Below are positions 42,295 to 54,500 of a stretch of DNA of 64,000 bases, one piece after another. Position 1 is the stretch's first letter. The number at the start of each line of letters is the position of its first letter. The DNA is from an uncultured Vicinamibacteraceae bacterium (lineage in GTDB: Bacteria; Acidobacteriota; Vicinamibacteria; Vicinamibacterales; UBA8438). The position numbers and the translations under genes were made by a program. Below the pieces are notes generated by a model. That model searched no databases, had not been told where the DNA came from, and saw only the letters and a list, made by a program, of their open reading frames with translations. The DNA lies in assembly GCA_964342185.1 (NCBI GenBank), contig CAYFER010000005.1, positions 18,316 to 82,315 on the forward strand. Direction: 5' to 3'.

Positions 42295-42408
42295 GTGCGT
42301 TACTGCGTCTTTCGCCATCGTAAAATTGTTTTTTAGTTAATTTTAGATGGGGTCATTCACAGTGTTTCCGGGGGCCGGTGCCTCCGAAAATGAATGAAGG
42401 AGACAAAC

Positions 42409-45400
42409 ATGAGGATGCGTAAGCTAGGAGTGGGAAAGGCCGCGCTGGTTCTTTGCTCTTTGCTGCTAGTGCCTGCAGTGGCATCGGCTCAGGATGCCGG
42501 TATCGCTGGAGTCGTGTCGGATGATACCGGCGGTGTGTTGCCTGGTGTCACGGTCACCGCAGCAAGTCCAGCCCTAATCGAGCAACAGCGAATAGCTATC
42601 ACCGACGGTGAGGGTCGATTCGCGTTCGCCGGGCTCACAGTAGGGACTTATTCAGTCGAATTTTCCCTGCCCGGGTTTAACCAGATTCGCCGAGAAGGCG
42701 TCGAGTTAACATCTGGTTTCACCGCCAACATCAGCGTTGAACTTGGTGTGGGTGGTATTGAAGAAACCATTACGGTCACGGGCGCAAGTCCCGTGGTCGA
42801 TATTCAGAACGTGCGTCGGCAAACACTGGCCACGGCTGAAGTGCTTTCAACGCTCCCGATGAGCACCAAGCACGTCAACAATCTTGTCACGCTGACGCCT
42901 GGATTTACCGGCCTAGCTGACGTTGGCGGTCGCTACAGCTCACAGGTGGGTGGCGAATATCACGGTAAAGCCGGAACCAAAGTCTCCATGGATGGAATGG
43001 GCGTCGAGAATAGCTTTGGTAACAGCAGTTATCAGATCAATGCTGCGGCCGTTCAGGAAATGGTCTTGCAGACCACGGGTATTTCTGCTGACACCAACGC
43101 CGACGGCGCAGTCGTCAACGTCATCCCGAAAGAAGGTGGAAACACCTTTAGCGGTATCCTCGCTGGCTTTTTTGCCAATGACAGCATGGAGTCCAACAAC
43201 GTCAACGCGAATCTAAAATCCAAGGGTATTTCCAAGCCAAACTCGACGACCAAAATGTGGGACGAGTCGATCAGCTTGGGCGGCCCAATCAAGCGAGATA
43301 AGTTGTGGTTCTTCTTCGCCGGTCGCAGCTGGGGCTTCACTCGAGAGGGTGCTAACGTCTTCTGGAACAGGTGCACGCATCCCGGCCAATCGTGTGCTGA
43401 CGGACGGTACATGGGTGCGTCCGAAGGAACAAAGCGGCAGGTGGTACGGCTCGAAAATTACACCGACCGTCCGAAGGACCGCTACAGTGGCCGACTTGAG
43501 TGGTACGACTCTTACCTGAGCCGTCTCACATGGCAGGCCAGCCAGAAGAACAAATTTAATGTCACTTACGACGAACAGCGTGCTTGCAACTGCGGTTCGA
43601 CGAACGGTTCGAGATTGCAGGAAACGTCACCTGGCTATCGATTCGACCCCAACAGGCTGACACAGCTGTCGTGGACGTCGACTCAGACCAGCCGTCTTCT
43701 GATCGAAGCGGGTGCGACATTTGCCATCTCGCAGTGGAACACGTTCCTGATGCCAGGTGTTGACGCAAGTGACGTCACGATTGCCGACCAAGGTCTTGGT
43801 TTGACCTACGGGAACTATGCCTGGTTGCGTGGTGACCCGAACCACACTGACCGTTACAGTCAGCGGTTCTCGGTTTCCTACGTCACGGGTTCGCATAACT
43901 TCAAGGCGGGCATGGCCTCTGAGCAGTTGGTCGACAATGTCTACCTCCTCAGGTCTGGTGAGGTTCAGTACCGCTTCAGAAATGCTGTCCCGAACCGCAT
44001 CACGCAATATTCGACACCGTATCTCCAGAGGGACCGTGCGCGCGACCTTGGTATCTACGCGCAGGACCAATGGGTTATCGACCGGTTGACCATTAACATG
44101 GGTGTCCGACTGGATACGCTCTACGGCTACACGCCGGCACAGGATCTGCCGGGCGCACCTGATGAACCTAACCCCTGGGGCGGATTCGAACGCGTCAATG
44201 AGTGGCTTGGTGAACGTTCCTATGCCCGGCGTGAAGGCACACCGAATTGGAAAGATATCAATCCGCGTGTCGGTCTCGCCTACGACGTATTTGGCGACGG
44301 CCGTACAGCTCTCAAATGGTCGCTTGGCCGATACGTTGCCAAGATCGGGACGGAAATCACCAATGCAAACAACCCCATCGTTCGGTCAATTAACTCAGTC
44401 AACCGCTCGTGGAACGACGCGAACGGCGACTACATCCCGACCTGCGATTTGGGTAACTTCAGTGCCAACGGCGAGTGCGGAGCTATCTCGAACAAGAACT
44501 TCGGTGCGGGAAATCCAAACGCAGTCCGTTGGGACGACGCTGTGCTGAATGGGCTTCGTGACAGCAACTGGGATATGTCAGCTGAGCTCCAGCAAGAACT
44601 CACTGACGGTCTGTCAATGACGGTTGGCTACTACTTCAACAATGGTGGCTACAACCAGCAGAACAACAGCAAGAACCGCGTGACCGACAATACTGCCGTT
44701 GGCACTGCCGATTACGACGAGTATTGCGTCACGATACCGACCGATAGTCGCCTCCCGAACAGCGGCCAACAGCTGTGTGGCCTGTATGACATCAAACCGT
44801 CTAGTTTTGGAAATGTCGACAGCTACATTACCCAGAGCCAGCTCTTTGGGGATGTGATTATGCGCAACCACTTCTTCAACGTCACGTTCGACGGACGGCT
44901 TCCCAACGGGATTCAGTTCGGTGGCGGTGTGGACACCGGGCAGTCAACAAACAACCGGTGCTTCGTGGTTGACACTCCGCAGGAGTTGCTCTACTGCAAC
45001 GATGTAACGCCGTTTAGTGCGCAGACTCAAATGAAGGCGTTCGGGTCAGTGCCGTTACCGGGTGACTTCCTGGTGAGTTTCGCGTATCAGAACCTTTCCG
45101 GTCCTGAGTATGCGGCCAACTTGCTCTACTCGAGTGCACAAATCGAACCGTCATTGGGTCGGCCGCTCTCAAGTGGTGGCTATCGCTCAGTGCCGATCGT
45201 GGCTCCGTCAACATTGTTTGAAGACAGAATCACGAGGCTTGATTTCCGAGCGAGCAAGATCATCAACTACAACCGCTTCAGGTTCCAGATTAACTTTGAT
45301 GCGTATAACCTGATGAATTCCAGCTCCATCCGAACAGTCAACAGCACCTACGGATCACGCTGGGGATACCCGAATTCAATTATCGACCCACGGATTCTTG

Positions 45401-45426
45401 AGTTCGGTGGACAGATCGACTTCTAA
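42409..45426 (+). CDS. TonB-dependent-receptor-like outer membrane protein with an N-terminal carboxypeptidase-regulatory-like domain
   Basis: The start is set at ATG 42409, with GAAGGAG 6 nt upstream. Signal peptide ...VPAVASAQDAGIAGVV.D..GGVLPGVTVTA (CarboxypepD_reg), a plug-like region, a long beta-barrel, and a terminal ...EFGGQIDF (C-terminal aromatic residue). Confidence 0.8.
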   Translation: MRMRKLGVGKAALVLCSLLLVPAVASAQDAGIAGVVSDDTGGVLPGVTVTAASPALIEQQRIAITDGEGRFAFAGLTVGTYSVEFSLPGFNQIRREGVELTSGFTANISVELGVGGIEETITVTGASPVVDIQNVRRQTLATAEVLSTLPMSTKHVNNLVTLTPGFTGLADVGGRYSSQVGGEYHGKAGTKVSMDGMGVENSFGNSSYQINAAAVQEMVLQTTGISADTNADGAVVNVIPKEGGNTFSGILAGFFANDSMESNNVNANLKSKGISKPNSTTKMWDESISLGGPIKRDKLWFFFAGRSWGFTREGANVFWNRCTHPGQSCADGRYMGASEGTKRQVVRLENYTDRPKDRYSGRLEWYDSYLSRLTWQASQKNKFNVTYDEQRACNCGSTNGSRLQETSPGYRFDPNRLTQLSWTSTQTSRLLIEAGATFAISQWNTFLMPGVDASDVTIADQGLGLTYGNYAWLRGDPNHTDRYSQRFSVSYVTGSHNFKAGMASEQLVDNVYLLRSGEVQYRFRNAVPNRITQYSTPYLQRDRARDLGIYAQDQWVIDRLTINMGVRLDTLYGYTPAQDLPGAPDEPNPWGGFERVNEWLGERSYARREGTPNWKDINPRVGLAYDVFGDGRTALKWSLGRYVAKIGTEITNANNPIVRSINSVNRSWNDANGDYIPTCDLGNFSANGECGAISNKNFGAGNPNAVRWDDAVLNGLRDSNWDMSAELQQELTDGLSMTVGYYFNNGGYNQQNNSKNRVTDNTAVGTADYDEYCVTIPTDSRLPNSGQQLCGLYDIKPSSFGNVDSYITQSQLFGDVIMRNHFFNVTFDGRLPNGIQFGGGVDTGQSTNNRCFVVDTPQELLYCNDVTPFSAQTQMKAFGSVPLPGDFLVSFAYQNLSGPEYAANLLYSSAQIEPSLGRPLSSGGYRSVPIVAPSTLFEDRITRLDFRASKIINYNRFRFQINFDAYNLMNSSSIRTVNSTYGSRWGYPNSIIDPRILEFGGQIDF

Positions 45427-45518: not shown

Positions 45519-47168
45519 CTAAGGAAGTTCTTCCTGCGTCCACGGGATACGGCAGGGTTCACCACGTTCATACCGAGCGAGGTTCACTTCGAGTCTCGCA
45601 GTTACTTCCACAAGACCAGCTTGTTGGGCAGCAATCAATAGATCGCGTTGCACGGCTGCAGCCTGAGCGTATTCACCAAGTTCGGCCAACATCATCGCGG
45701 TCGTTTCGCCAAGTTCAATGGTCTGTTGCTGCTCAAGAAGTCGTTCAATCAACTGTTGCGCCAAACTAGCGTCTCGCACCTGGTCATCCGGAGCCGCTGA
45801 CAACAAGCGCGCTAACGCATGCGTAAACAATGGATGATCAGGATACCGTTCGCTATCGGCGGACAGTCTGGTTCGCGCGTCGGCGTAACGCTCTAATCGC
45901 ACGAGGGTCATTGCGTAGCCAAACGCTGCGTCCTGATGTGCCGGATCCATTTCAAGCACGCGTTCGTATTCCGCCAGCGCCTCACGGGGTTGCCCACTGC
46001 GCCCCAGGACACCGGCAAGTTGCGTCCGTGCTTGAATGTTGACCGGATCGTGCTCCAACGCTATTGAAAAATTGTCAATGGCCTCTTGATGCCGACCCGC
46101 TGCCGCGCGAAGTATGCCCAGGCTGTAGCGCGCGGCAACATAGCCAGAATCCGCACGAATCGCCGCTTCGAATGCGGCTTCCGCGCCAGCCTCGTCTGCC
46201 AGTTGATAAAGTGCAGTCCCGAGGCGGTGATGCAATGACGGATCCGTCGGCGCGAGTTCCAATCCTCTACGAAACCAAGTGGCGGCATCAGCCCAGTTGC
46301 CAACGTCCATGGCTTGCCCCCCCCTGACGTTGTAGGCTTCGGCACTTTCAAGCAATGAACCAACTTCTTGCATCAGTGGATCTCTGGGACTGACTTCCAC
46401 GTCTCCCCGCTGGTCAAGATGTCTCTCCGCGCGGTCGAGGTCTCCCAAGTTCCGATAAGCCATGGCCAGCGGAACATGGATGGTCGACGCCTGGGGCCGA
46501 AATGCGAGCGCCGCCTCAAAGTCCTGAACTGCTTGGGTAGAATCACCGTTCGCTAGCGCCACACGACCTGCTCCAAACCTAGCCGCGGCTGACGTCGGTC
46601 GTATGGCCAATGCTTGACTGAATAACGGTTCAGCAGCTTCAACCAGGCCCTGATCAAGATAAATGTCACCGAGCCAAACGAGTGTTGCCACATCGTTCGG
46701 TGCAAGTTCTAGCGCACGCTCAAAGGCAGTCGCAGCGGCGTCGATGGGACCAGTGTTCCGATAGACATGACCCAGATAATAGGGCCATCGTCGGTCATCA
46801 GGAAGAAGTGTCTGGGCATTGCCGTAGCATGTCCCGGCAGCCTCAAAAAAGGACGCTGCCAGCAACAGGTTGCCCATATCCCCGTAGGCACCCCCGAGAG
46901 CTGCAGCACTTTGACTCCCATCTTCAATGGCAGACCTCACTAGAGCAAGTTGGACGTGCATCTGCTCGCGAACCGATTCAGCCATGACAGAAAAGTCCGG
47001 CAGTACAACGGGTTGCAGATTCCGACCCGTTGGAGGTTCAACTCTTGAAGTATCACCGGGCACCGCCAAAACATTCTGCTCCGCCGGGTCCGGGTCAGAA
47101 CCGGCACACCCGCTACTCAGCAAAGCGCAGGCCACCCAACTAGTTTGGCACCAGATTCGGATTCGCAT
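45519..47168 (-). CDS. TPR-repeat protein, secreted or possible lipoprotein
   Basis: 549 aa. N-terminus WVACALLSSGCAG, then more than 10 TPR-like units (A...Y..AL...P....A...LG..Y...G). Confidence 0.75.
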   Translation of the reverse strand: MRIRIWCQTSWVACALLSSGCAGSDPDPAEQNVLAVPGDTSRVEPPTGRNLQPVVLPDFSVMAESVREQMHVQLALVRSAIEDGSQSAAALGGAYGDMGNLLLAASFFEAAGTCYGNAQTLLPDDRRWPYYLGHVYRNTGPIDAAATAFERALELAPNDVATLVWLGDIYLDQGLVEAAEPLFSQALAIRPTSAAARFGAGRVALANGDSTQAVQDFEAALAFRPQASTIHVPLAMAYRNLGDLDRAERHLDQRGDVEVSPRDPLMQEVGSLLESAEAYNVRGGQAMDVGNWADAATWFRRGLELAPTDPSLHHRLGTALYQLADEAGAEAAFEAAIRADSGYVAARYSLGILRAAAGRHQEAIDNFSIALEHDPVNIQARTQLAGVLGRSGQPREALAEYERVLEMDPAHQDAAFGYAMTLVRLERYADARTRLSADSERYPDHPLFTHALARLLSAAPDDQVRDASLAQQLIERLLEQQQTIELGETTAMMLAELGEYAQAAAVQRDLLIAAQQAGLVEVTARLEVNLARYERGEPCRIPWTQEELP

Positions 47169-47386
47169 ACGACACCAAAAAGACTTCTCGTCGATGCTAA
47201 CACGGTCTGATGTCTCTCTGTGTAATGCAAAGCGATCAGACAGATACTTCCTTTACAGGCGACTCACTGGTGCGATACCTGTTTTTTGGGGAATACGACG
47301 ATCCAAGTCAGGACACTATCGGGCGCGACCGAATTCGAGAGAAAAGGAAGCGCGATTCAAGGATTCTGTTGCGCTGCCACCAATCC

Positions 47387-49198
47387 TCATTGTTCCAGTC
47401 CCTGCCCTTCGGTGAGCGTCACGTAACGGTCAATCTCAACATCAGGCCACAGTTCTACTCGGCCACTCGGCCAAAACACCTGAACTGCCGGAAGTTCAGA
47501 CGACTGACCCAACCCAACCAACACCCTGGAATCGCTTGCCGAGGCGTAACTGCCATCGGACCGTACTCGCCGCCAGACCGGCGACTCTGTTGATCGAATC
47601 ACCTCAACTCGTGCACCTATGGCATATCGCGAAACTTCTTGGCGGAGGTCTAATCCGAGCCAGTGCGCACGCTGACCAACTTCATTTATGAACAGTCGAA
47701 CGGGACCACTATTGTTACTCACAACAATGTCAGTATCACCATCATTGTCGAGGTCGCCTACTGCCGCGCCGCGACTAACTTCAGACAGACTAAAGGCCGC
47801 ACCAGTCTGATTCGTCACGTCGTCGAACCGGCCGTTTCGAAGGTTTAGGAAAAGCGAGTTTTGCTCGTCGTAAGGAAAAGCTTCGCCCACACGCCCCTCA
47901 ATTGCCTCTATGGCACCGTTCACAGCTACAAGGTCAAGCCACCCGTCGTTATCGACATCTAGCCACGCCGTACCAAAACCAGTCCGCCCGAGGCTCAAAG
48001 GCCCAAGGCCCACTCGGCCACTCACGTCTGCGAATACACCTGACCCGTTATTGAGATACAAGTTATTGCCCTCAGCCGGTAAGTGGGTCATAAACAGGTC
48101 TGGATCGCCATCATTGTCGAAATCAGCAGCATCCACACCCATGCTGCCCTCTGCAGTGCCGTCACCACTTAGCGCAACACCCGAGAGCAAACCCAAGTGC
48201 GACAACGTGCCATCACCTTGATTCATCCAGAGAAGATTGTCACCACCATCATTCGCCACATAAATATCAACCCACCCGTCGGAATCAAAATCCGCCGTCG
48301 ATACCCCTAACGCCGGGCCATGATCAGTCCCAAACAAAGCCACAGACGTAACATCAACGAACTGACCGTTTCTCTGGTTTTGATACAAACGATCCGCTTG
48401 TGGTGTGTAGAGATCGGGCGTGCAGTAGTCACGACGACCGGTCAAACCAGTACAGGGTTGGTCTGCTTCAATTTGGTATTGCAGATAATTACCAACATAT
48501 AGATCCAACCAACCGTCACGGTCGTAATCAACAAACGACGCCGAAACAGCCCAACCAGGATCGTTAGTGCCACTTTCGGCTGAAATATCAATAAACGTAC
48601 CGTCACAGTTATTCCGTAGTAACTGGTTCGGTCCAAAATTCGTCAAGTAGATATCTATACAACCATCATTGTCGACATCACCGGCAGCGACCCCCATTCC
48701 GTACTCAAACGTTTCAATTCCACTCTCCTCAGTAACGTCAGTAAACCGGAGTGAAGCTGGGTCACCAGTCGTCGGGTCTAAGTCGTTGCGAAACAATCGC
48801 CCGCCAAGTTCAAAAGCAGAATCCAGCTCAACGAGTGACCGGTCCAAGCCAACCTGGTCCCCAAGCATACGTCCCTGAACCAAATACACATCGAGGTCAC
48901 CATCATTGTCGTAGTCAAGCACCCCGACACCGCCAGGAATCATCTCTGGAAAAAAGAACTCACCAGACATGCCGTTGAGGTGGGTAAACCGTAAGCCAGT
49001 TGCCTCGGCCTTTTCCGTAAACCAGCCGGGTGTGTCGTCCCCAGGAGGAACATCAGTAAGAACCGGACCACCGGTGATCGCCGACTCGCCAGACAACTCT
49101 TGAACAGACTCCCCTGCACACCCCAGACAGGACATGGCTATAGCCAGTGTGTTTGAACATAGACGCATAACTGTCTGGTTACTCATACGACCATACAT
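47387..49198 (-). CDS. CRTAC1-family protein (FG-GAP/VCBS repeats plus ASPIC/UnbV C-terminal domain)
   Basis: 603 aa. Repeated GV.A.D.DNDG..D.Y..N motifs (at least 6) and a C-terminal ...GARVEV...........R.V.S..GY.S.SD..V.VGLG, typical of ASPIC/UnbV. Confidence 0.8.
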   Translation of the reverse strand: MYGRMSNQTVMRLCSNTLAIAMSCLGCAGESVQELSGESAITGGPVLTDVPPGDDTPGWFTEKAEATGLRFTHLNGMSGEFFFPEMIPGGVGVLDYDNDGDLDVYLVQGRMLGDQVGLDRSLVELDSAFELGGRLFRNDLDPTTGDPASLRFTDVTEESGIETFEYGMGVAAGDVDNDGCIDIYLTNFGPNQLLRNNCDGTFIDISAESGTNDPGWAVSASFVDYDRDGWLDLYVGNYLQYQIEADQPCTGLTGRRDYCTPDLYTPQADRLYQNQRNGQFVDVTSVALFGTDHGPALGVSTADFDSDGWVDIYVANDGGDNLLWMNQGDGTLSHLGLLSGVALSGDGTAEGSMGVDAADFDNDGDPDLFMTHLPAEGNNLYLNNGSGVFADVSGRVGLGPLSLGRTGFGTAWLDVDNDGWLDLVAVNGAIEAIEGRVGEAFPYDEQNSLFLNLRNGRFDDVTNQTGAAFSLSEVSRGAAVGDLDNDGDTDIVVSNNSGPVRLFINEVGQRAHWLGLDLRQEVSRYAIGARVEVIRSTESPVWRRVRSDGSYASASDSRVLVGLGQSSELPAVQVFWPSGRVELWPDVEIDRYVTLTEGQGLEQ

Positions 49199-49265: not shown

Positions 49266-51278
49266 ATGCACCGAACGGGGATTGGCTCGAGGATTCTCGC
49301 TGGAGGCTTGCACCGAATTCGGTTTCATTGCAACATCATGGCCTATGCTAGTGTTGGTGACACTTCCTTAACGGCCAGAGGGAAAACCGTGGCAAAGCAA
49401 TTAGACCGAGCAGTTGCCTCCAGAAAACCGTTGGCGACAACCGCCGGCATTCTCGCCATCTGTCTGTGGGCTAATTGGGGTCTTGCTCAAGACCTATCGT
49501 CAGGCACAGTCACCTACGCCGGACAAATTGCCTCGATTCTGAACACCCACTGCGTGGTTTGTCACCGACCCAGCGCCATCGCTCCGTTCAGCCTCACAAC
49601 GTTCGACGCCGTTAAAGATCGCGCCGAGCAGATTGCCCAAGTTGTAGAGAGTGGCAACATGCCCCCGTGGAAACCTGAATCAGTCGGTGAACGCTTCCGA
49701 GGAGAACGCCGCCTACAAGAAAACGACGTTGAACTGATTCGCCGGTGGGTTGATGCTGGTGCGCCGGAAGGTAACCGACAGATAACTCCAGCATCACCGA
49801 TGTGGCCTGAAGGGTGGCACTCGGGAATCCCCGACCTCGTTGTAACGATGCCAGCGTCGTATACTCTGGCGCCAGACAGTGAGATCTATCGAAACTTTGT
49901 GATTCCGATTCCAGTTGAAGAACGACGTTTCGTTGCCGCAATCGAACTAAAACCTTCTACAACCCAAGGAATCCATCACGCCCGATTAATGATCGACTCA
50001 ACCGGCAGCGCGCGACGGCAAGACAATGCCGACGACTTAGTCGGATATGACGAACCGTCCACCGACGGCACAGAGTTCCCAGACGGCCACTTTCTAGGTT
50101 GGGCGCCAGGCACACTAGCGGGCAATGCTCCAGAGGAGTTGGCCTGGCTACTCGAGCCCGGCACCGACTTAGTAGTTAAGACACACCTTGTGTCGCGTAA
50201 CACACCGGTAAACCTCCAACTGTCTGTCGGTCTCTTCTTCACTGACAAACCACCAACCGTCACGCCCGCCATCGTCCAACTTGGATCACAAACAATTGAT
50301 GTTCCAGCTGGAGACCCCACTCACGTGGTCGAAGACACCTATCAATTACCTGTTGACGTCGACTTGCTTGCTATTTACCCGCACGCTCATTTTCTAGCCA
50401 AGCAAATCCGAGCATCAGCACGATTACCCAATGGCACTGTTCTCCAACTAATTCGAATCGACGACTGGGATTTTAATTGGCAAGACGAATACCGATACAC
50501 CGAAAACATCCGCTTACCAGCAGGAACGACGATTCGTATGCGATATGTTTTTGACAACTCCACGAACAATCGCAGAAACCCGCACAATCCTCCAAAACGC
50601 GTGCGTTTTGGTCCCCGGTCTACTGACGAAATGGCCGAACTGACATTACAGGTAGTTCCGGTGAGGTCTACGGACCGAACCATGCTGGTCCAAGACGTCT
50701 GGCGAAAGGTCTCTGAGATCATACTAGCGGGAGCACAAAAGAAGCTGACTGATAATCCCAGCAGCGAAAACCACGAAAGCTTCGCAACTAGTCTCGCAGC
50801 GGTGGGACGAATCGACGACGCGGTCAGACATCTGGAAGAAGCTGCTCGCCTGGATCCGGCTAGACCGACCGTATATTACCGATTGGGAACTGCTTTAGCG
50901 CTGCAAGACAAACAAAATGAAGCGATGTACTACTACCAACGCGCCCTCAACCTAGACCCAAATTTCGTTGAGGCCAACAACAATTTAGGCAGCCTGTTTC
51001 ACTTAGCTGGAAACCTTGATGAAGCCAGCCGATATTATCGCCGCACTCTCGATCTAGACCCTGACCACAGTGGTGCCCATTTCAATCTAGGAAATATCTT
51101 CTTAGCTCGTCGACAATTTTCGGATGCCGAGTTGGAATTCAGAAAAACTCTCGAGCTAAGGCCAGACTTTGGCGACGCGTTCGAGGGTCTTGGTCAGGCT
51201 CTAGCCGAACAGGGAAAACAGACGGAAGCGCAGGAAGCCCTCAATCGAGCACGAGAACTCGAATTGAAAAACCGCTAA
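49266..51278 (+). CDS. tripartite secreted/anchored protein: c-type haem domain (CxxCH), a PHM/DBH-like type II copper monooxygenase domain, and C-terminal TPR repeats
   Basis: 670 aa. Hydrophobic anchor PLATTAGILAICLWANWGLA; HCVVCHRP...GNMPPW (planctomycete-type cytochrome c motif). Copper ligand pattern GIHHARL ... VVKTHLV ... IYPHAHFLAK ... STDEMAEL, collinear with peptidylglycine alpha-hydroxylating monooxygenase. Four or more TPRs at the C-terminus. Confidence 0.7.
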   Translation: MHRTGIGSRILAGGLHRIRFHCNIMAYASVGDTSLTARGKTVAKQLDRAVASRKPLATTAGILAICLWANWGLAQDLSSGTVTYAGQIASILNTHCVVCHRPSAIAPFSLTTFDAVKDRAEQIAQVVESGNMPPWKPESVGERFRGERRLQENDVELIRRWVDAGAPEGNRQITPASPMWPEGWHSGIPDLVVTMPASYTLAPDSEIYRNFVIPIPVEERRFVAAIELKPSTTQGIHHARLMIDSTGSARRQDNADDLVGYDEPSTDGTEFPDGHFLGWAPGTLAGNAPEELAWLLEPGTDLVVKTHLVSRNTPVNLQLSVGLFFTDKPPTVTPAIVQLGSQTIDVPAGDPTHVVEDTYQLPVDVDLLAIYPHAHFLAKQIRASARLPNGTVLQLIRIDDWDFNWQDEYRYTENIRLPAGTTIRMRYVFDNSTNNRRNPHNPPKRVRFGPRSTDEMAELTLQVVPVRSTDRTMLVQDVWRKVSEIILAGAQKKLTDNPSSENHESFATSLAAVGRIDDAVRHLEEAARLDPARPTVYYRLGTALALQDKQNEAMYYYQRALNLDPNFVEANNNLGSLFHLAGNLDEASRYYRRTLDLDPDHSGAHFNLGNIFLARRQFSDAELEFRKTLELRPDFGDAFEGLGQALAEQGKQTEAQEALNRARELELKNR

Positions 51279-51290
51279 GCCTCAAACCTA

Positions 51291-51998
51291 CTAAAACACT
51301 TGAAACAAAATTGGCCACCACGGCTGAGCCCGAAGGTAGGGCAGTAACACGCCGAGTAAGGGAAGCCATACCCATCTCGATGCACGTGCACACTCAAGTC
51401 TAAGGCGATGAATGTCTATCGTAAGGTTAGCAGGCGTCTCAAAACGCTGGGCCGACGGCCAATAGCGGGGCACGGTATCGAGATAGACTTGGTATTCGTC
51501 TCCATGCCTTACCCTGAGAAATTCTTCTTCTGCGGGCACAGTGGTGAGCATGTAAATGAACGTCACAATCAGTACAGCCATGACGCACAGCAAGCTCTGC
51601 AAAAACAGAGCTGCAGCCAACGCTAACAAAAAAGATCCTAAGTAAAGCGGGTTGCGGCAGATGGAGTAGGGGCCATCCGTGACCAGAATCTTTTCTTTCC
51701 TACCGCCGATATACAGAGTTGCCCAGAACCGAAATATAGTACCGGCAACAAACGTCACCCACGCCATTACCTCAATTACTCCAGCAAGCCATGACCCTTC
51801 TGATACAAAGGGCGTTGAGAATAGCATCACTACCAAGGACGGTAGCAACACCAAGGCTGCGACGATACCGCGCCATCTAAACCGCCGCTGATTTGACACC
51901 GTATCCGTGGTCAGCGGAGGTGCGATGTGTCCAAAATCATGAGTTTGAGAAATGTTTGACGAAGACAACACTCTAGAATCCACAAAAATGGCCTTCAC
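51291..51998 (-). CDS. isoprenylcysteine carboxyl methyltransferase (ICMT)/phospholipid methyltransferase-like membrane methyltransferase
   Basis: 235 aa, 4-5 TM. Contains ...LVTDGPYSICRNPLYLGSFLLALA... and ...AEEEFL...G..Y..Y, typical of the ICMT/PEMT superfamily. Confidence 0.65.
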   Translation of the reverse strand: MKAIFVDSRVLSSSNISQTHDFGHIAPPLTTDTVSNQRRFRWRGIVAALVLLPSLVVMLFSTPFVSEGSWLAGVIEVMAWVTFVAGTIFRFWATLYIGGRKEKILVTDGPYSICRNPLYLGSFLLALAAALFLQSLLCVMAVLIVTFIYMLTTVPAEEEFLRVRHGDEYQVYLDTVPRYWPSAQRFETPANLTIDIHRLRLECARASRWVWLPLLGVLLPYLRAQPWWPILFQVF

Positions 51999-52278
51999 TA
52001 AAACGTTTATTCCCGCGGTATTTATCTACTACCCCTGTCCTAGGCCAGTCGACGACAGCACCACTTTTCCTCGTACTCTCAACACTTGATTCTAGCCGAG
52101 ATTGCCGAGTGCCTGTAGTTTTTCTCACGAATGAAGGTGTTATCAATAACTCAGTCTATGGAGCTAAATCAGCCTAATCAAGTCAAATTAGACATTTAGA
52201 AGGAGTAGACTGATGGCCATAGATATTCTCCAAATGGTTCGAGTCAGACGGTTGAAAGAAAAACACAGGAGGCACCAT

Positions 52279-53199
52279 ATGAAACGGCGCATCGTTCTTG
52301 CCTTGTTACTAGGTGTGGGCACACTGTGCCTGTCGGTCGTCGGAGCACAAGAATCGGCCAAAGTCATCGAAGTTGAACAACTGAGAGAGAACTTGTTCGT
52401 GTTCAGAGGAGAGGGCGGTGGGGGAAACGTTGCCGTTTTCGTCACAACAGGCGGGGTAGTCGTTGTCGATTCAAAAAATCCTGGCTGGGGCCAACCCATT
52501 CTTGACGAAATCAAAACATTGACGCCCAACCCAGTCACGACCGTCATCAATACCCACAGTCACGCTGATCACGTCAGTGGGAACGCTGCGTTTTCAAACA
52601 CGGTCGAATTTGTAGCGCATGAAGTCACAAAAGCCAATATGGAAGCAATGAGACCGTATACGGGTCGCACTGAACCACCCGTGAATGTGTTTGAAGAGAC
52701 GAACGACCAAGGACTTCCTACTCGAACTTTCACCGATCGAATGTCACTCGGTGCCGGTCGCGACCAAATTGACTTATATTACTTTGGACGTGCCCACACA
52801 GGGGGTGATACCTGGGTGGTCTTTCCGGCCCTCCGGACGCTGCATGCCGGCGACGCCTTCTTGGGTAAACGCGTACCGTTTCTCGATGCGGCTAACGGTG
52901 GCAGCGGAGTGGATATCCCTGACACGCTACAAAAAGCGCACGACACAATCGAAAACGTCGACACCATCATCACCGGCCACAGCACCCAAGCGACGTGGGA
53001 AGATCTTAACGAGTGGGCGGCTTTTAATCGCGACTTCTTAGAAATGGTACGGGTAGGGCGAACTACGGGAAAGACAGTCGATGAAATCGCTAGTAGTTGG
53101 GTCAAGCCAAGTCGGTACGCCGACTACGACTCTTCAAATGCGGGCAGCATCAGACGAAACATTCAAGTTATTGTTGAAGAACTTGAGCGACTAAATTAA
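52279..53199 (+). CDS. secreted MBL-fold metallo-hydrolase (copy B)
   Basis: The start is moved to ATG 52279, with AGGAGG 6 nt upstream. Signal peptide MKRRIVLALLLGVGTLCLSVVGAQE, then INTHSHADHVSGN, GRAHTGGDTWVVFP and TIITGHST. Confidence 0.8.
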   Translation: MKRRIVLALLLGVGTLCLSVVGAQESAKVIEVEQLRENLFVFRGEGGGGNVAVFVTTGGVVVVDSKNPGWGQPILDEIKTLTPNPVTTVINTHSHADHVSGNAAFSNTVEFVAHEVTKANMEAMRPYTGRTEPPVNVFEETNDQGLPTRTFTDRMSLGAGRDQIDLYYFGRAHTGGDTWVVFPALRTLHAGDAFLGKRVPFLDAANGGSGVDIPDTLQKAHDTIENVDTIITGHSTQATWEDLNEWAAFNRDFLEMVRVGRTTGKTVDEIASSWVKPSRYADYDSSNAGSIRRNIQVIVEELERLN

Positions 53200-53369: not shown

Positions 53370-54500
53370 TCATCGGTCAACAAATGGCGGGCCGATTATG
53401 AGCGCCGGGTCCGCACCCATCTTGGGCACGAATTTTTGTGTGCGGCCATGCTGGTTGTCCCCACCATATAAGTTCCCCTCAGAATCTACCGATATGGTGT
53501 GCACCTCTAAGTATCCAGTCGGCCCTTCGGTCGACACATTCCAGGTGTACAAACGATTTCCTGAAAAATCAAGTTTTACTAACTTGAGGGGACCCAGATC
53601 AGACACCCAAACATGCTCGTCGTTCACAATGATGTCAAGCGGAAGACCAAATCCAGACCAAACATCAATATGATCGATTTCCGGGTGGTACTCTCCGGAT
53701 GCTTCACTCATCAGTCTGAACACTTGAACACGACCATTTGCCCGATCCAAAGCAAAAATTAGGCCGTCAGGACCGATGGCTAACGCATGTATGCCATTAA
53801 ACTGCCCTGGTCCTTCTCCGAATTCACCGAATTCTGACAGATAGTTACCTTGACCATCCAAAATCACCACACGGTGATTATCAAGACCATCCGCGACCAA
53901 CACTCTACCGTCAGGCAGAAACGCCACGTCCTGCGGACGACCAAAATGAGTCTGGTCACTGCCACCTACATTTTTCTCACCTAACGTCATGAGCAGCTGA
54001 CTGCCGTCATTAGAGAACACAAAAATTTGATGCCTTGTTTCATTGACAACCCATACTCGCCGGTCTGGATCGTAGGGACTAATTCGAACCCTGTGAGGAC
54101 CGGGTCCCCCCTCCCCGCTGTCACACAAGTGGTCCCACTGATCCCACACCTCAAGCACATTGCCATCTCCGTCAACCACCATCAGGCAGTTCTGCCATGT
54201 TCGAAATTCAGTATCACTCAACACGTTAATACCAATCGACCCCGCATATCCGGCAAACTCGGGTGGAATTGGGTTCGGCAGTCTTGTCTCTCCGCGTTGT
54301 GAGATAAATATCCGGTCGGGAGACTCCGCAAACACACCAGAATTTCCGCCAAATGCAAAACCCTCTTCGGCAAAGGGCTTGTGCCAATCGGCGACGACAT
54401 CATACGGACTCGGCCCGATTGGTCCCAAGTCTTGACTTGAAAGCCAGTCGATCGACAAAACTATGAACGCTAGAATGGTTAAAACTTGTAAATTTCGCAT
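53370..54500 (-). CDS. secreted NHL-repeat six-bladed beta-propeller, peptidyl-alpha-hydroxyglycine alpha-amidating lyase (PAL)-like
   Basis: 376 aa with a signal peptide. GPHRVRISPYDPDRRVWVVNETRHQIFVF and GGSDQTHFGRPQDVAFLPDGRVLVADGLDNHRVVILDGQGNYLSEFGE...FNGIHALAIGPDGLIFALDRANGRVQVF closely parallel the PAL segments as I recall them: PHGLSID...WVTDVALHQVFK, GSDQNHFCQPTDVAV...VSDGYCNSRIVQF and FSVPHSLAL...VADRENGRIQCF. Confidence 0.7.
   Translation of the reverse strand: MRNLQVLTILAFIVLSIDWLSSQDLGPIGPSPYDVVADWHKPFAEEGFAFGGNSGVFAESPDRIFISQRGETRLPNPIPPEFAGYAGSIGINVLSDTEFRTWQNCLMVVDGDGNVLEVWDQWDHLCDSGEGGPGPHRVRISPYDPDRRVWVVNETRHQIFVFSNDGSQLLMTLGEKNVGGSDQTHFGRPQDVAFLPDGRVLVADGLDNHRVVILDGQGNYLSEFGEFGEGPGQFNGIHALAIGPDGLIFALDRANGRVQVFRLMSEASGEYHPEIDHIDVWSGFGLPLDIIVNDEHVWVSDLGPLKLVKLDFSGNRLYTWNVSTEGPTGYLEVHTISVDSEGNLYGGDNQHGRTQKFVPKMGADPALIIGPPFVDR

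What the first reader, a model, noticed from the sequence alone, without database searches (positions are those of the whole stretch)
49266..51278. Bacterial PHM/DBH-like copper monooxygenase domain fused to a c-type haem domain and TPR repeats
Seen in sequence: after a membrane anchor or signal segment the protein has a CxxCH haem-attachment site (C96-VV-C-H100, nt 49551-49565) with a downstream GNMPPW, as in planctomycete-type cytochrome c modules. From about residue 205 it is collinear with the catalytic core of peptidylglycine alpha-hydroxylating monooxygenase (PHM) as I recall it. EIYRNFVIPIPVEERRFVAAIELKPSTTQGIHHARL matches DTYFCMSMRLPVDEEAFVIDFKPRASMDTVHHMLL. FLGWAPG...DLVVKTHL matches ILYAWARN...YFVLQVHY. 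LLAIYPHAHFLAKQI matches VFAYRVHTHHLGKVV. RSTDEMAELTL matches TSSDEMCNLYI. All six canonical copper ligands (CuH: His-His...His; CuM: His-x-His...Met) therefore appear conserved in order. The C-terminus is a TPR array. Established knowledge: PHM/DBH enzymes use ascorbate as the electron donor. Inference: the fused haem c could supply electrons in the periplasm, and the TPRs could bind a peptide or protein substrate. I know of no biochemically characterised bacterial member with this architecture.
Basis: partly seen in the sequence, partly recalled or inferred. Interest (0 to 1): 0.7.

Follow-up and report, generated by a model that had tools for sequence, protein, structure and literature searches.

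The report
Bacterial cytochrome-c-fused PHM-like copper monooxygenase
This acidobacterial gene encodes an exported protein in which a haem-c domain is fused to a copper-enzyme core of the kind animals use to make amidated peptide hormones and noradrenaline; it belongs to a very large bacterial family that databases label only as "TPR repeat protein".

Summary
ORF 49266-51278 (+), with a probable start at GTG 49389, encodes a signal peptide, a mono-haem cytochrome c-like domain (C96-VV-C-H100, invariant M132-PPW), a two-domain PHM/DBH-type core and about five TPRs.

An AlphaFold model of the core (pLDDT 90) matches only PHM and DBH in the PDB (31 top hits, E about 1e-12). Profile-profile comparison with animal PHMs gives 96.9% probability (E 1.8e-10). 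All six copper ligands are in register: H237/H238/H307 for CuH and H373/H375/M456 for CuM. They are invariant in 121 close homologues and nearly invariant in 147 distant ones.

The family is very large (11,301 clusters at 50% identity; at least 582 species genomes, mainly Acidobacteriota and Gemmatimonadota). It almost always keeps the CxxCH domain and is annotated only as "TPR protein".

It is not a PHM orthologue. The peptidyl-glycine-binding residues (R240, N316, Y318) and the disulfides are absent, and single-sequence Pfam scores fall below threshold.

The haem's role as built-in electron donor and the TPRs' role in docking are inferred, and the substrate is unknown. Recurrent neighbours are TonB-type outer-membrane barrels, a thioredoxin-like protein and ASPIC/TPR pairs.

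I rate it a new variant of a known kind, interest about 0.65.

The parts
49266..51278 (+). Longest ORF (670 aa) encoding the whole protein. The likely true start is GTG at 49389 (629 aa).
   Evidence: start-codon context and homologue N-termini
49389..49487 (+). Probable Sec signal peptide (V42..A74: basic n-region, hydrophobic LATTAGILAICLWANWGLA, predicted cleavage before QDL)
   Evidence: read directly from the sequence. All homologues have an equivalent hydrophobic N-terminus. No signal-peptide predictor was run.
49503..49823 (+). Mono-haem cytochrome c-like domain (residues about 80-186)
   Evidence: 25/25 family members hit Pfam Cytochrome_CBB3 (best 1e-5), 19 Haem_bd, 15 PccH. Top PDB profile hits are all c-type cytochromes, with PccH 4rlr best at E 0.011. 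AF2 model is 4-helical, pLDDT 80. The fold search was not significant.
49551..49565 (+). CxxCH haem-attachment motif (C96-V-V-C-H100)
   Evidence: invariant in 121/121 homologues; CxxCH present in 124/127 diverse representatives that have an N-terminal region
49659..49670 (+). M132-P-P-W, candidate distal (axial Met) haem ligand motif
   Evidence: M132 invariant 121/121; MPP[WF] in 121/127 representatives. The axial-ligand role is inferred.
49824..50255 (+). PHM/DBH-like N-terminal (CuH) beta-sandwich domain, residues about 187-330
   Evidence: AF2 pLDDT 90; Foldseek full-length matches to PHM/DBH; hhalign
49974..49979 (+). H237-H238, equivalent to PHM CuH ligands H107/H108
   Evidence: invariant 121/121 and 147/147
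50184..50186 (+). H307, equivalent to PHM CuH ligand H172
   Evidence: 121/121 and 146/147
50256..50675 (+). PHM/DBH-like C-terminal (CuM) beta-sandwich domain, residues about 331-470
   Evidence: Pfam Cu2_monoox_C hit in 22/25 members (best 1.7e-5). Family member P0207 passes the curated cut-off (27.1 > 23 bits). Also.
50382..50390 (+). H373-A-H375, equivalent to PHM CuM ligands H242/H244
   Evidence: invariant 121/121 and 147/147
50631..50633 (+). M456 (in S-T-D-E-M), equivalent to PHM CuM ligand M314
   Evidence: 120/121 and 147/147
50763..51269 (+). TPR array (about 5 repeats, residues about 500-668), joined to the core by a long helix (residues about 468-491)
   Evidence: Pfam TPR_1/TPR_2 E about 1e-26; helix H283-306 of the model
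42394..45426 (+). CarboxypepD_reg + OMP_b-brl_4 (TonB-type) outer-membrane barrel. It is the most recurrent neighbour of the family. This is a genomic association only, and in this window it lies 3.9 kb upstream.
   Evidence: Pfam. Within 10 kb in 35/79 loci and immediately adjacent on the same strand in about a dozen divergent loci.
45519..49198 (-). TPR protein (45519-47168) plus FG-GAP/UnbV_ASPIC (CRTAC1-like) protein (47387-49198), transcribed divergently from the target. This is a recurrent neighbouring pair.
   Evidence: Pfam; seen again next to homologues of 63% and 50% identity; ASPIC within 10 kb in 16/79 loci

Best explanation
The gene encodes a periplasmic, self-contained copper monooxygenase of the PHM/DBH ('non-coupled binuclear copper') type.

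Proposed mechanism:
1. After Sec export, the N-terminal domain receives covalent haem at C96/C99, with H100 and probably M132 as axial ligands.
2. In place of ascorbate, this tethered cytochrome c takes single electrons from the periplasmic respiratory pool and passes them to CuH (H237, H238, H307).
3. CuH relays them to CuM (H373, H375, M456). There O2 is activated and a C-H bond of the substrate is hydroxylated, as in PHM and DBH.
4. The C-terminal TPRs act as a docking module for a protein or peptide substrate or for a partner, possibly one linked to the TonB-type outer-membrane barrels that so often lie next to these genes.

The substrate is not a glycine-extended peptide bound in the PHM manner.

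Shown: fold, ligand conservation, haem motif, domain order, family size and gene neighbourhood.
Inferred: haem and copper occupancy, direction of electron flow, monooxygenase chemistry and the role of the TPRs.
For: Fold: the AF2 model of residues 186-492 has pLDDT 90.1 and pTM 0.86. The top 31 Foldseek PDB hits are all PHM (E about 1e-12, about 290 of 307 columns) or human DBH (E 2e-9, TM 0.64). The next hits are unrelated, with TM about 0.2.

Homology: hhalign against rat PHM gives E 9.3e-6. Against a 24-sequence PHM family profile it gives probability 96.9%, E 1.8e-10 over 232 columns. 22/25 members hit Pfam Cu2_monoox_C, and P0207 passes its curated cut-off.

Ligands: all six are in register and invariant in 121 homologues. 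In 147 representatives that are less than 50% identical to each other they are kept in 146-147 of 147. The PHM Q170 equivalent is Gln in 105/147.

Haem: CxxCH and MPPW are invariant. 124/127 diverse representatives carry CxxCH upstream of the core. All 25 N-domains hit cytochrome c models, and P0121 passes the Cytochrome_CBB3 cut-off.

Export: signal peptide read from the sequence.

Precedents: a c-type cytochrome domain (CjX183) reduces bacterial copper LPMOs (PMC8981238). [quoted passage not shown]
Against: - The window protein itself does not reach Pfam thresholds (Cu2_monoox_C 14.5 < 23 bits; no Cu2_monooxygen hit; cytochrome models 20-21 < 27 bits).
- An HMMER profile of the core finds no PHM among PDB sequences.
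- The haem-domain model gives no significant fold match.
- The PHM substrate-binding residues and all disulfides are absent.
- No substrate gene is evident, and in this window the gene is monocistronic, between a divergent and a convergent gene.
- The thioredoxin-like partner seen in other loci is missing here.
Confidence: 0.62

Rival explanations
1. It is a true bacterial PHM that alpha-hydroxylates C-terminal glycine. It would work with the PAL-like NHL propeller encoded 2 kb downstream (53370-54500, minus strand) to amidate peptides, forming a bacterial PAM pathway split into two genes.
For: The NHL protein is 31% identical to rat PAL over 236 aa (E 8e-23). The three Zn-binding histidines (H585, H690, H786) and R706 are aligned to identical residues. 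PHM-like and PAL-like genes lie within 2.1 kb of each other.
Against: The PHM residues that bind the glycine carboxylate and backbone (R240, N316, Y318) are replaced in the window protein and across the family. R240 is never Arg in 147 representatives. PAL's catalytic Y654 aligns with Leu and D787 with Thr. The NHL gene recurs near the target in only 6/79 loci, two of which are about 95%-identical relatives. It lies on the opposite strand with two unrelated genes in between. TRIM-type NHL domains score higher than PAL against it.
Confidence: 0.06
2. The haem-Cu-Cu chain works as a periplasmic oxidase or reductase, or as an electron-transfer or copper-handling module, without hydroxylating an organic substrate. 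Examples would be reduction of O2, H2O2, superoxide or nitrite. The TPRs would anchor it to an envelope complex.
For: Three redox centres in series and a periplasmic location. No substrate gene is conserved. A thioredoxin-fold protein is translationally coupled in about 13 loci and fused in P0155, which would suit a redox or metal-delivery role.
Against: The Met-containing CuM site and the PHM Q170 equivalent are conserved exactly as in the C-H hydroxylating enzymes. No member of this fold is known to have a purely oxidase or electron-transfer role (my own knowledge). The core cleft is retained in the model, which aligns over its full length to PHM.
Confidence: 0.2
3. The PHM-like core is a catalytically inert binding module, comparable to the related PNGase F or carbohydrate-binding beta-sandwiches, within a TPR scaffold protein of the cell envelope.
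For: Databases name the family only as TPR protein. Single-sequence HMM scores are weak. A peptide:N-glycanase appears among distant fold hits (rank 34, E 1e-4, TM 0.35).
Against: All six metal ligands and the haem motif are essentially invariant over 11,301 clusters' worth of divergence, which is not expected for an inert module. The TPR tail is the variable part: it is replaced by EF-hands in P0121 and absent in P0207.
Confidence: 0.04

Closest known systems
Peptidylglycine alpha-hydroxylating monooxygenase catalytic core (PHMcc; PDB 1PHM/1OPM/3MIC; Pfam PF01082 + PF03712)
   Same: Two-domain beta-sandwich fold over the full length (Foldseek E about 1e-12). CuH His-His...His and CuM His-x-His...Met ligands are in register. 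The Q170 equivalent is usually Gln. The S-x-D-E-M motif around the CuM methionine is kept.
   Different: About 16-19% identity. No disulfides (0 Cys in the core against 5 disulfides in PHM). The peptidyl-glycine binding residues R240, N316 and Y318 are replaced. It is bacterial and periplasmic. It has a fused cytochrome c domain where PHM depends on soluble ascorbate, and a TPR tail where PAM has PAL. It scores below Pfam thresholds.
Dopamine beta-hydroxylase / tyramine beta-hydroxylase / MOXD1 (PDB 4ZEL)
   Same: Same catalytic core (Foldseek E 2e-9, TMq 0.64). It also follows the principle that the core is fused to an N-terminal accessory domain and a C-terminal interaction domain (PMC4846438).
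   Different: DBH's N-terminal domain is a DOMON beta-sandwich with no haem ligands, whereas here it is a helical CxxCH cytochrome c-like domain. DBH's C-terminal part is a helical dimerisation domain, whereas here it is TPRs. No DOMON hit was found.
CjX183 c-type cytochrome domain of Cellvibrio japonicus Cbp2D, which reduces bacterial LPMOs (PMC8981238)
   Same: A small bacterial c-type cytochrome domain serves as the protein electron donor to an extracytoplasmic copper oxygenase in place of ascorbate. This matches the proposed working principle.
   Different: The acceptor there is a mononuclear histidine-brace LPMO on a separate polypeptide, and the activity has been shown experimentally. 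Here the cytochrome is fused to a binuclear PHM-type core and nothing has been tested.
PccH-type and cbb3-CcoP-type mono-haem cytochromes c (PDB 4RLR; Pfam PF22297, PF13442, PF14376)
   Same: Best sequence-profile matches of the N-terminal domain. They share the motif 'VT(F/Y)xxDIxPIlxxxCxxCH'.
   Different: All matches are below the curated thresholds for the window protein. The fold search is inconclusive. The downstream MPPW(K/L)P motif and the W-rich linker are specific to this family.

Membership tests
PHM/DBH copper type II monooxygenase superfamily (catalytic core) | Two consecutive beta-sandwich domains with the PHMcc topology | tested here: met
   AF2 pLDDT 90.1. The top 31 Foldseek PDB hits are PHM or DBH, E 8e-13 to 2e-9, about 290 aligned columns.
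PHM/DBH copper type II monooxygenase superfamily (catalytic core) | CuH site: His-His ... His | tested here: met
   H237/H238/H307 align with H107/H108/H172. Conserved 121/121 and 146-147/147.
PHM/DBH copper type II monooxygenase superfamily (catalytic core) | CuM site: His-x-His ... Met | tested here: met
   H373/H375/M456 align with H242/H244/M314. Conserved 120-121/121 and 147/147.
PHM/DBH copper type II monooxygenase superfamily (catalytic core) | Significant profile-level sequence homology to authentic members | tested here: met
   hhalign of A1 against a 24-sequence PHM family gives probability 96.9%, E 1.8e-10.
PHM/DBH copper type II monooxygenase superfamily (catalytic core) | Pfam PF03712 (Cu2_monoox_C) at the gathering threshold | tested here: not met
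   The window protein scores 14.5 bits against a cut-off of 23. However, 22/25 relatives hit it and relative P0207 passes with 27.1 bits.
PHM/DBH copper type II monooxygenase superfamily (catalytic core) | Pfam PF01082 (Cu2_monooxygen, CuH domain) at the gathering threshold | tested here: not met
   No hit for the window protein or any of 25 relatives, even at E <= 1.
PHM/DBH copper type II monooxygenase superfamily (catalytic core) | Two copper ions bound about 11 Å apart; O2-dependent C-H hydroxylation | not testable with these tools
   Model coordinates are not exposed, and metal content and activity need experiment.
PHM/DBH copper type II monooxygenase superfamily (catalytic core) | Ascorbate as physiological reductant | not testable with these tools
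   Needs biochemistry. The fused cytochrome c suggests a different donor (inference).
PHM proper (EC 1.14.17.3, peptidylglycine monooxygenase) | Residues binding the C-terminal glycine of the substrate (R240, N316, Y318) | tested here: not met
   The equivalents are Y371, E458 and T460 in the window protein. Across the family they are Y/A/Q, E/D and M/T/W/L, and the R240 equivalent is never Arg in 147 representatives.
PHM proper (EC 1.14.17.3, peptidylglycine monooxygenase) | Conserved intradomain disulfides | tested here: not met
   No cysteine in residues 186-492, whereas several Cys columns are invariant in the PHM family alignment.
DBH/TBH/MOXD1 subfamily | N-terminal DOMON domain | tested here: not met
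   No DOMON hit. The N-terminal domain is helical with CxxCH.
c-type cytochromes (class I-like, mono-haem) | CxxCH haem-attachment motif in an exported polypeptide | tested here: met
   C96-VV-C-H100, invariant, preceded by a signal peptide.
c-type cytochromes (class I-like, mono-haem) | Distal axial ligand (Met) downstream | tested here: inconclusive
   M132 in MPPW is invariant, but its ligation cannot be shown without a structure containing haem.
c-type cytochromes (class I-like, mono-haem) | Match to a curated cytochrome c model at threshold | tested here: not met
   The window domain scores 21.5 bits against 27 for Cytochrome_CBB3, and 23.5 against 27 for Haem_bd. 25/25 relatives hit below threshold, and P0121 passes with 34.1 bits.
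c-type cytochromes (class I-like, mono-haem) | Cytochrome c fold | tested here: inconclusive
   AF2 gives a 4-helix model with pLDDT 80. The best Foldseek hit is the haem-c-containing hydrazine synthase alpha subunit at E 0.2.
c-type cytochromes (class I-like, mono-haem) | Covalently bound haem | not testable with these tools
   Needs haem staining or mass spectrometry.
TPR repeat proteins | Tandem 34-residue TPR motifs | tested here: met
   TPR_1 E 2.2e-26 and TPR_2 E 3.6e-26, 4-5 repeats between residues 500 and 668.

The most novel reading that the evidence does not exclude
A very large, so far unrecognised bacterial family (more than 11,000 clusters at 50% identity, centred on Acidobacteriota and Gemmatimonadota) consists of self-sufficient PHM/DBH-type monooxygenases whose reductant is a fused cytochrome c wired to the respiratory chain. 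On this reading they hydroxylate a new class of periplasmic or imported substrates in concert with TonB-type outer-membrane barrels, and they are the prokaryotic stock from which the eukaryotic peptide-amidating and catecholamine-forming enzymes derive.
Probability: 0.4. Interest if true: 0.8.

Novelty: new variant of a known kind. Interest (0 to 1): 0.65.

Why it matters
PHM, DBH and TBH are textbook 'non-coupled binuclear copper' enzymes. They have been studied almost only in animals, and they depend on ascorbate. How electrons cross the roughly 11 Å solvent gap from CuH to CuM is still debated.

A soluble bacterial version with no disulfides or glycans and a covalently tethered haem would offer three things:
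- A spectroscopically visible, triggerable electron source for studying that transfer.
- An easily expressed scaffold for C-H hydroxylation biocatalysis.
- A functional lead for thousands of soil and sediment proteins now labelled only 'TPR repeat protein'.

The conserved neighbours (TonB-type barrels, a thioredoxin-like protein, ASPIC/UnbV-TPR pairs) point to an uncharted envelope pathway in Acidobacteriota and Gemmatimonadota. The size and ligand conservation of the bacterial family also bear on where the animal neuropeptide and catecholamine enzymes came from.

Tried and rejected
1. Whole-protein Pfam and NCBIfam scans returned only TPR families and weak cytochrome hits. Whole-protein PDB phmmer was swamped by TPR proteins.
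2. phmmer of the core alone and an HMMER profile (A1) against PDB sequences found no PHM, only chance uS4 matches at E about 1. HMMER is not sensitive enough here; hhalign and Foldseek were needed.
3. The fold search of the haem-domain model found nothing significant, so the cytochrome assignment rests on motifs and sub-threshold HMM hits.
4. A 'planctomycete-type cytochrome' (PSCyt1) assignment is not supported (1/25 members).
5. The PAL-like NHL neighbour was considered as a functional partner and rejected as a conserved one (6/79 loci; Y654 replaced by Leu).
6. H275 (GHFLGW) was considered as an extra universal metal ligand. It is invariant among close relatives but only 75/147 in diverse representatives, so it is specific to one clade.
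7. Neighbour cluster 5 (about 790 aa) was dismissed as a spurious antisense ORF in GC-rich DNA.
8. The sigma-70 promoter and intrinsic terminator scan around the gene was no better than shuffles.
9. A lipoprotein signal was considered (the 'LAIC' near the cleavage site). It was rejected because the Cys is not conserved in homologues.
10. Seven literature searches for bacterial PHM/DBH homologues found none. The library lacks most subscription journals, so this is absence of evidence only.
Full report
**1. The observation**

The codons tgc-gtg-gtt-tgt-cac at 49551-49565 encode C96-V-V-C-H100. GNMPPW follows at residues 130-135. The C-terminal 170 residues are canonical TPRs (Pfam TPR_1 E 2e-26, TPR_2 E 4e-26).

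The longest ORF probably over-extends the gene. GTG at 49389 (codon 42) is preceded by GAGGG with a 6-nt spacer, and it coincides with the start 'MAKQLDRAV' of the 94%-identical homologues P0002 and P0003. From there the N-terminus reads as a Sec signal peptide: basic residues, then LATTAGILAICLWANWGLA, then QDL. This reading is by eye; no predictor was run.

**2. Is the centre PHM-like?**

Single-sequence methods barely see it. The whole protein gives only TPR hits plus weak cytochrome hits. The isolated centre gives Cu2_monoox_C at E 0.025 and 14.5 bits, below the 23-bit cut-off, and nothing in PDB by phmmer.

I collected homologues (more than 3,218 hits) and trimmed 25 diverse cores into alignment A1. 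An HMMER profile of A1 still found no PHM among PDB sequences. Three independent lines then converge:

- 22 of the 25 cores individually hit Pfam Cu2_monoox_C (best E 1.7e-5) and essentially nothing else. A distant member, P0207, passes the curated threshold (27.1 > 23 bits).
- An AlphaFold2 model of residues 186-492 is confident (pLDDT 90.1, pTM 0.86). In a Foldseek search of the PDB, ranks 1-29 are PHM structures (E 8e-13 to 4e-10, 285-307 aligned columns, TM 0.51-0.62). Ranks 30-31 are human DBH (E 2e-9, TMq up to 0.64). After that come unrelated beta-sandwiches with TM about 0.2.
- hhalign of A1 against rat PHM gives E 9.3e-6. hhalign against a 24-sequence animal PHM family profile (A3) gives probability 96.9% and E 1.8e-10 over 232 columns.

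In both alignments the six ligands are in register: H237/H238 with H107/H108, H307 with H172, H373/H375 with H242/H244, and M456 with M314.

The ligands are invariant in 121 homologues (M456 in 120/121). In 147 representatives that are each less than 50% identical to the others, they are kept in 146-147 of 147. The PHM Q170 equivalent is Gln in 105/147. So the fold and both copper sites of the PHM/DBH class (CuH with 3 His, CuM with 2 His + Met; PMC4846438) are present. Ligand geometry could not be measured because the model coordinates are not exposed.

**3. What it is not**

The residues that hold the substrate's terminal glycine in PHM are R240, N316 and Y318 (my knowledge of the 1OPM complex). 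In the window protein they correspond to Y371, E458 and T460. Across the family they are Tyr/Ala/Gln, Glu/Asp and Met/Thr/Trp/Leu, and Arg never occurs at the first position in 147 representatives.

The core has no cysteine, whereas several Cys columns are invariant in animal PHMs. There is no DOMON domain. The protein is therefore a member of the PHM/DBH superfamily but not an orthologue of PHM or DBH. Glycine-extended peptides are unlikely substrates.

**4. The haem domain**

C96, C99, H100 and M132-P-P-W are invariant. All 25 trimmed N-domains (A2) hit Cytochrome_CBB3 (best 1e-5), 19 hit Haem_bd, 15 hit PccH and 14 hit Cytochrom_C. Only 1 hits the planctomycete PSCyt1 model.

The A2 profile's best PDB matches are all c-type cytochromes: PccH 4rlr at E 0.011, then CcoP, then the haem domain of hydrazine synthase alpha. 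The AF2 model is a 4-helix domain (pLDDT 80). Its fold search is not significant, with the best hit being hydrazine synthase alpha at E 0.2, which is common for apo-cytochrome models.

Among diverse representatives with at least 100 residues upstream of the core, 124/127 carry CxxCH and 121/127 carry MPP[W/F]. The distant member P0121 passes the Cytochrome_CBB3 threshold. The cytochrome-core pairing is thus the constant feature of the family. The tail varies: TPRs of different length in most members, EF-hands in P0121, none in P0207.

**5. Family and organism**

The window is about 95% identical to a Vicinamibacteraceae MAG (Acidobacteriota; L006). These include Vicinamibacterales and other Acidobacteriota, Gemmatimonadota, Latescibacterota, Planctomycetota, Verrucomicrobia and Sumerlaeia. 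All the listed loci are MAGs.

The A1 profile finds 11,301 clusters at 50% identity with E <= 1e-3, and 2,629 with E <= 1e-30. Source names are only 'tetratricopeptide repeat protein' or 'TadD / mono/diheme cytochrome c family protein'. No precomputed Pfam domain covers the core in the top 120 hits. Seven literature searches found no described bacterial member. From memory, superfamily-level databases (SCOP/Gene3D 'PHM/PNGase F') may flag such proteins, but I could not check that here.

**6. Genomic context**

In the window the gene is monocistronic. Upstream, transcribed divergently, lie an FG-GAP/UnbV_ASPIC (CRTAC1-like) gene and a TPR gene. Further upstream is a CarboxypepD_reg + OMP_b-brl_4 (TonB-type) barrel. 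Downstream, convergent, is a PEMT/ICMT-like methyltransferase, followed by a metallo-beta-lactamase-fold gene and an NHL propeller.

Across the 79 related loci:

- The OMP barrel is the commonest neighbour. It is within 10 kb in 35 loci and directly adjacent on the same strand in about a dozen divergent ones. Such barrels are numerous in these phyla, so the background rate still needs to be computed.
- ASPIC/UnbV + TPR pairs recur in 16 loci.
- A PMT_2 + TPR membrane protein lies divergently upstream in 9 loci.
- Tandem paralogues of the target occur in 14 loci.
- A roughly 190-aa secreted thioredoxin-fold protein, with invariant DCPISNRYAP and AVGCxIxD motifs and weak AhpC-TSA/Redoxin hits, overlaps the target's start codon by 4 nt in about 13 loci. 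It is fused N-terminally in P0155 but is absent from this window.

**7. The PAL-like neighbour**

The NHL protein at 53370-54500 (-) is 31% identical to rat PAL over 236 residues (E 8e-23). PAL's three Zn histidines and R706 are conserved, but the catalytic Y654 is replaced by Leu and D787 by Thr. It accompanies the target in only 6/79 loci. Finding PHM-like and PAL-like genes this close together is notable, but the evidence does not support a conserved two-gene amidation pathway.

**8. Mechanism proposed**

This is an exported, haem-c-driven PHM/DBH-type monooxygenase. Electrons from periplasmic carriers enter at the tethered cytochrome, pass to CuH and then to CuM, where O2 is activated for C-H hydroxylation. 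The TPRs dock a protein or peptide substrate or an envelope partner.

The nearest working precedent for a cytochrome c feeding a bacterial copper oxygenase is CjX183 with LPMOs (PMC8981238). Fusion of the PHM-type core to varied accessory domains is characteristic of the class (PMC4846438).

Fold, ligands, motifs, architecture and distribution are shown. Cofactor loading, electron flow, chemistry and substrate are inferred.

**9. Verdict**

The finding is a new variant of a known kind: a widespread, unannotated bacterial branch of the PHM/DBH superfamily with a built-in cytochrome c. Interest is about 0.65.

Noticed in passing
window 53370-54500 (-): A secreted NHL six-bladed propeller 31% identical to rat peptidyl-alpha-hydroxyglycine alpha-amidating lyase (PAL) over 236 aa (E 8e-23). 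PAL's three Zn histidines and R706 are conserved, but the catalytic Y654 is replaced by Leu. It lies 2 kb from the PHM-like gene yet recurs beside it in only 6/79 loci.
   Followed up: partly
L057 9024-9614, L070 3178-3714, L033 8940-9629 and about 10 other loci; fused in protein P0155: A roughly 190-aa secreted thioredoxin-fold protein (weak AhpC-TSA/Redoxin hits) with invariant motifs DCPISNRYAP and AVGCxIxD. Its stop codon overlaps the start of the PHM-like gene by 4 nt in about 13 loci, and it is fused to the N-terminus in P0155. It is absent from the 64-kb window. It may be a copper chaperone or a thiol redox partner.
   Followed up: partly
window 42394-45426 (+); also L027, L045, L047, L052, L053, L070, L077, L078, L081: CarboxypepD_reg + OMP_b-brl_4 (TonB-type) outer-membrane barrel genes lie directly next to the PHM-like gene on the same strand in about a dozen divergent loci, and within 10 kb in 35/79 loci. 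The background frequency of such barrels in these genomes was not computed.
   Followed up: partly
window 45519-49198 (-); L001/L002 10653-17668; L003: Repeated pairs of a roughly 550-aa TPR protein and a roughly 600-aa FG-GAP/UnbV_ASPIC (CRTAC1-like) protein recur near the family, duplicated in tandem in L001. Their function in bacteria is unknown.
   Followed up: partly
L015, L019, L032, L034 and 10 other loci: Two or three paralogous copies of the cytochrome-PHM-like-TPR gene sit in tandem or within a few kb of each other. Some genomes also carry copies at distant sites, for example CAXXVU020000002.1 and OZ253580.1.
   Followed up: no
protein P0121 (1064 aa): A variant with two PHM-like core stretches, a cytochrome c domain that passes the Pfam threshold, and EF-hand calcium-binding motifs in place of TPRs.
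   Followed up: no
window residue H275 (nt 50088-50090), motif P-D-G-H-F-L-G-W: An extra histidine in the CuH domain is conserved in 120/121 close homologues but only 75/147 diverse representatives, where Gln or Phe replaces it. It aligns with Ile in PHM's 'ILYAWA' strand. Its role is unknown; one possibility is an electron-relay or interface residue facing the haem domain.
   Followed up: partly
window 51291-51998 (-) and 52213-53199 (+): A PEMT/ICMT-like membrane methyltransferase converges on the target, with its stop codon 12 nt from the target's. It is followed by a secreted metallo-beta-lactamase-fold protein. Both recur near homologues in only a few loci.
   Followed up: no
L012 (CAZCEL010000222.1) and L025 (VFZL01000049.1): Family members occur on contigs binned as Bifidobacteriaceae and Acidimicrobiia (Gram-positive lineages). 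That would be odd for a periplasmic cytochrome c fusion and may reflect MAG mis-binning.
   Followed up: no
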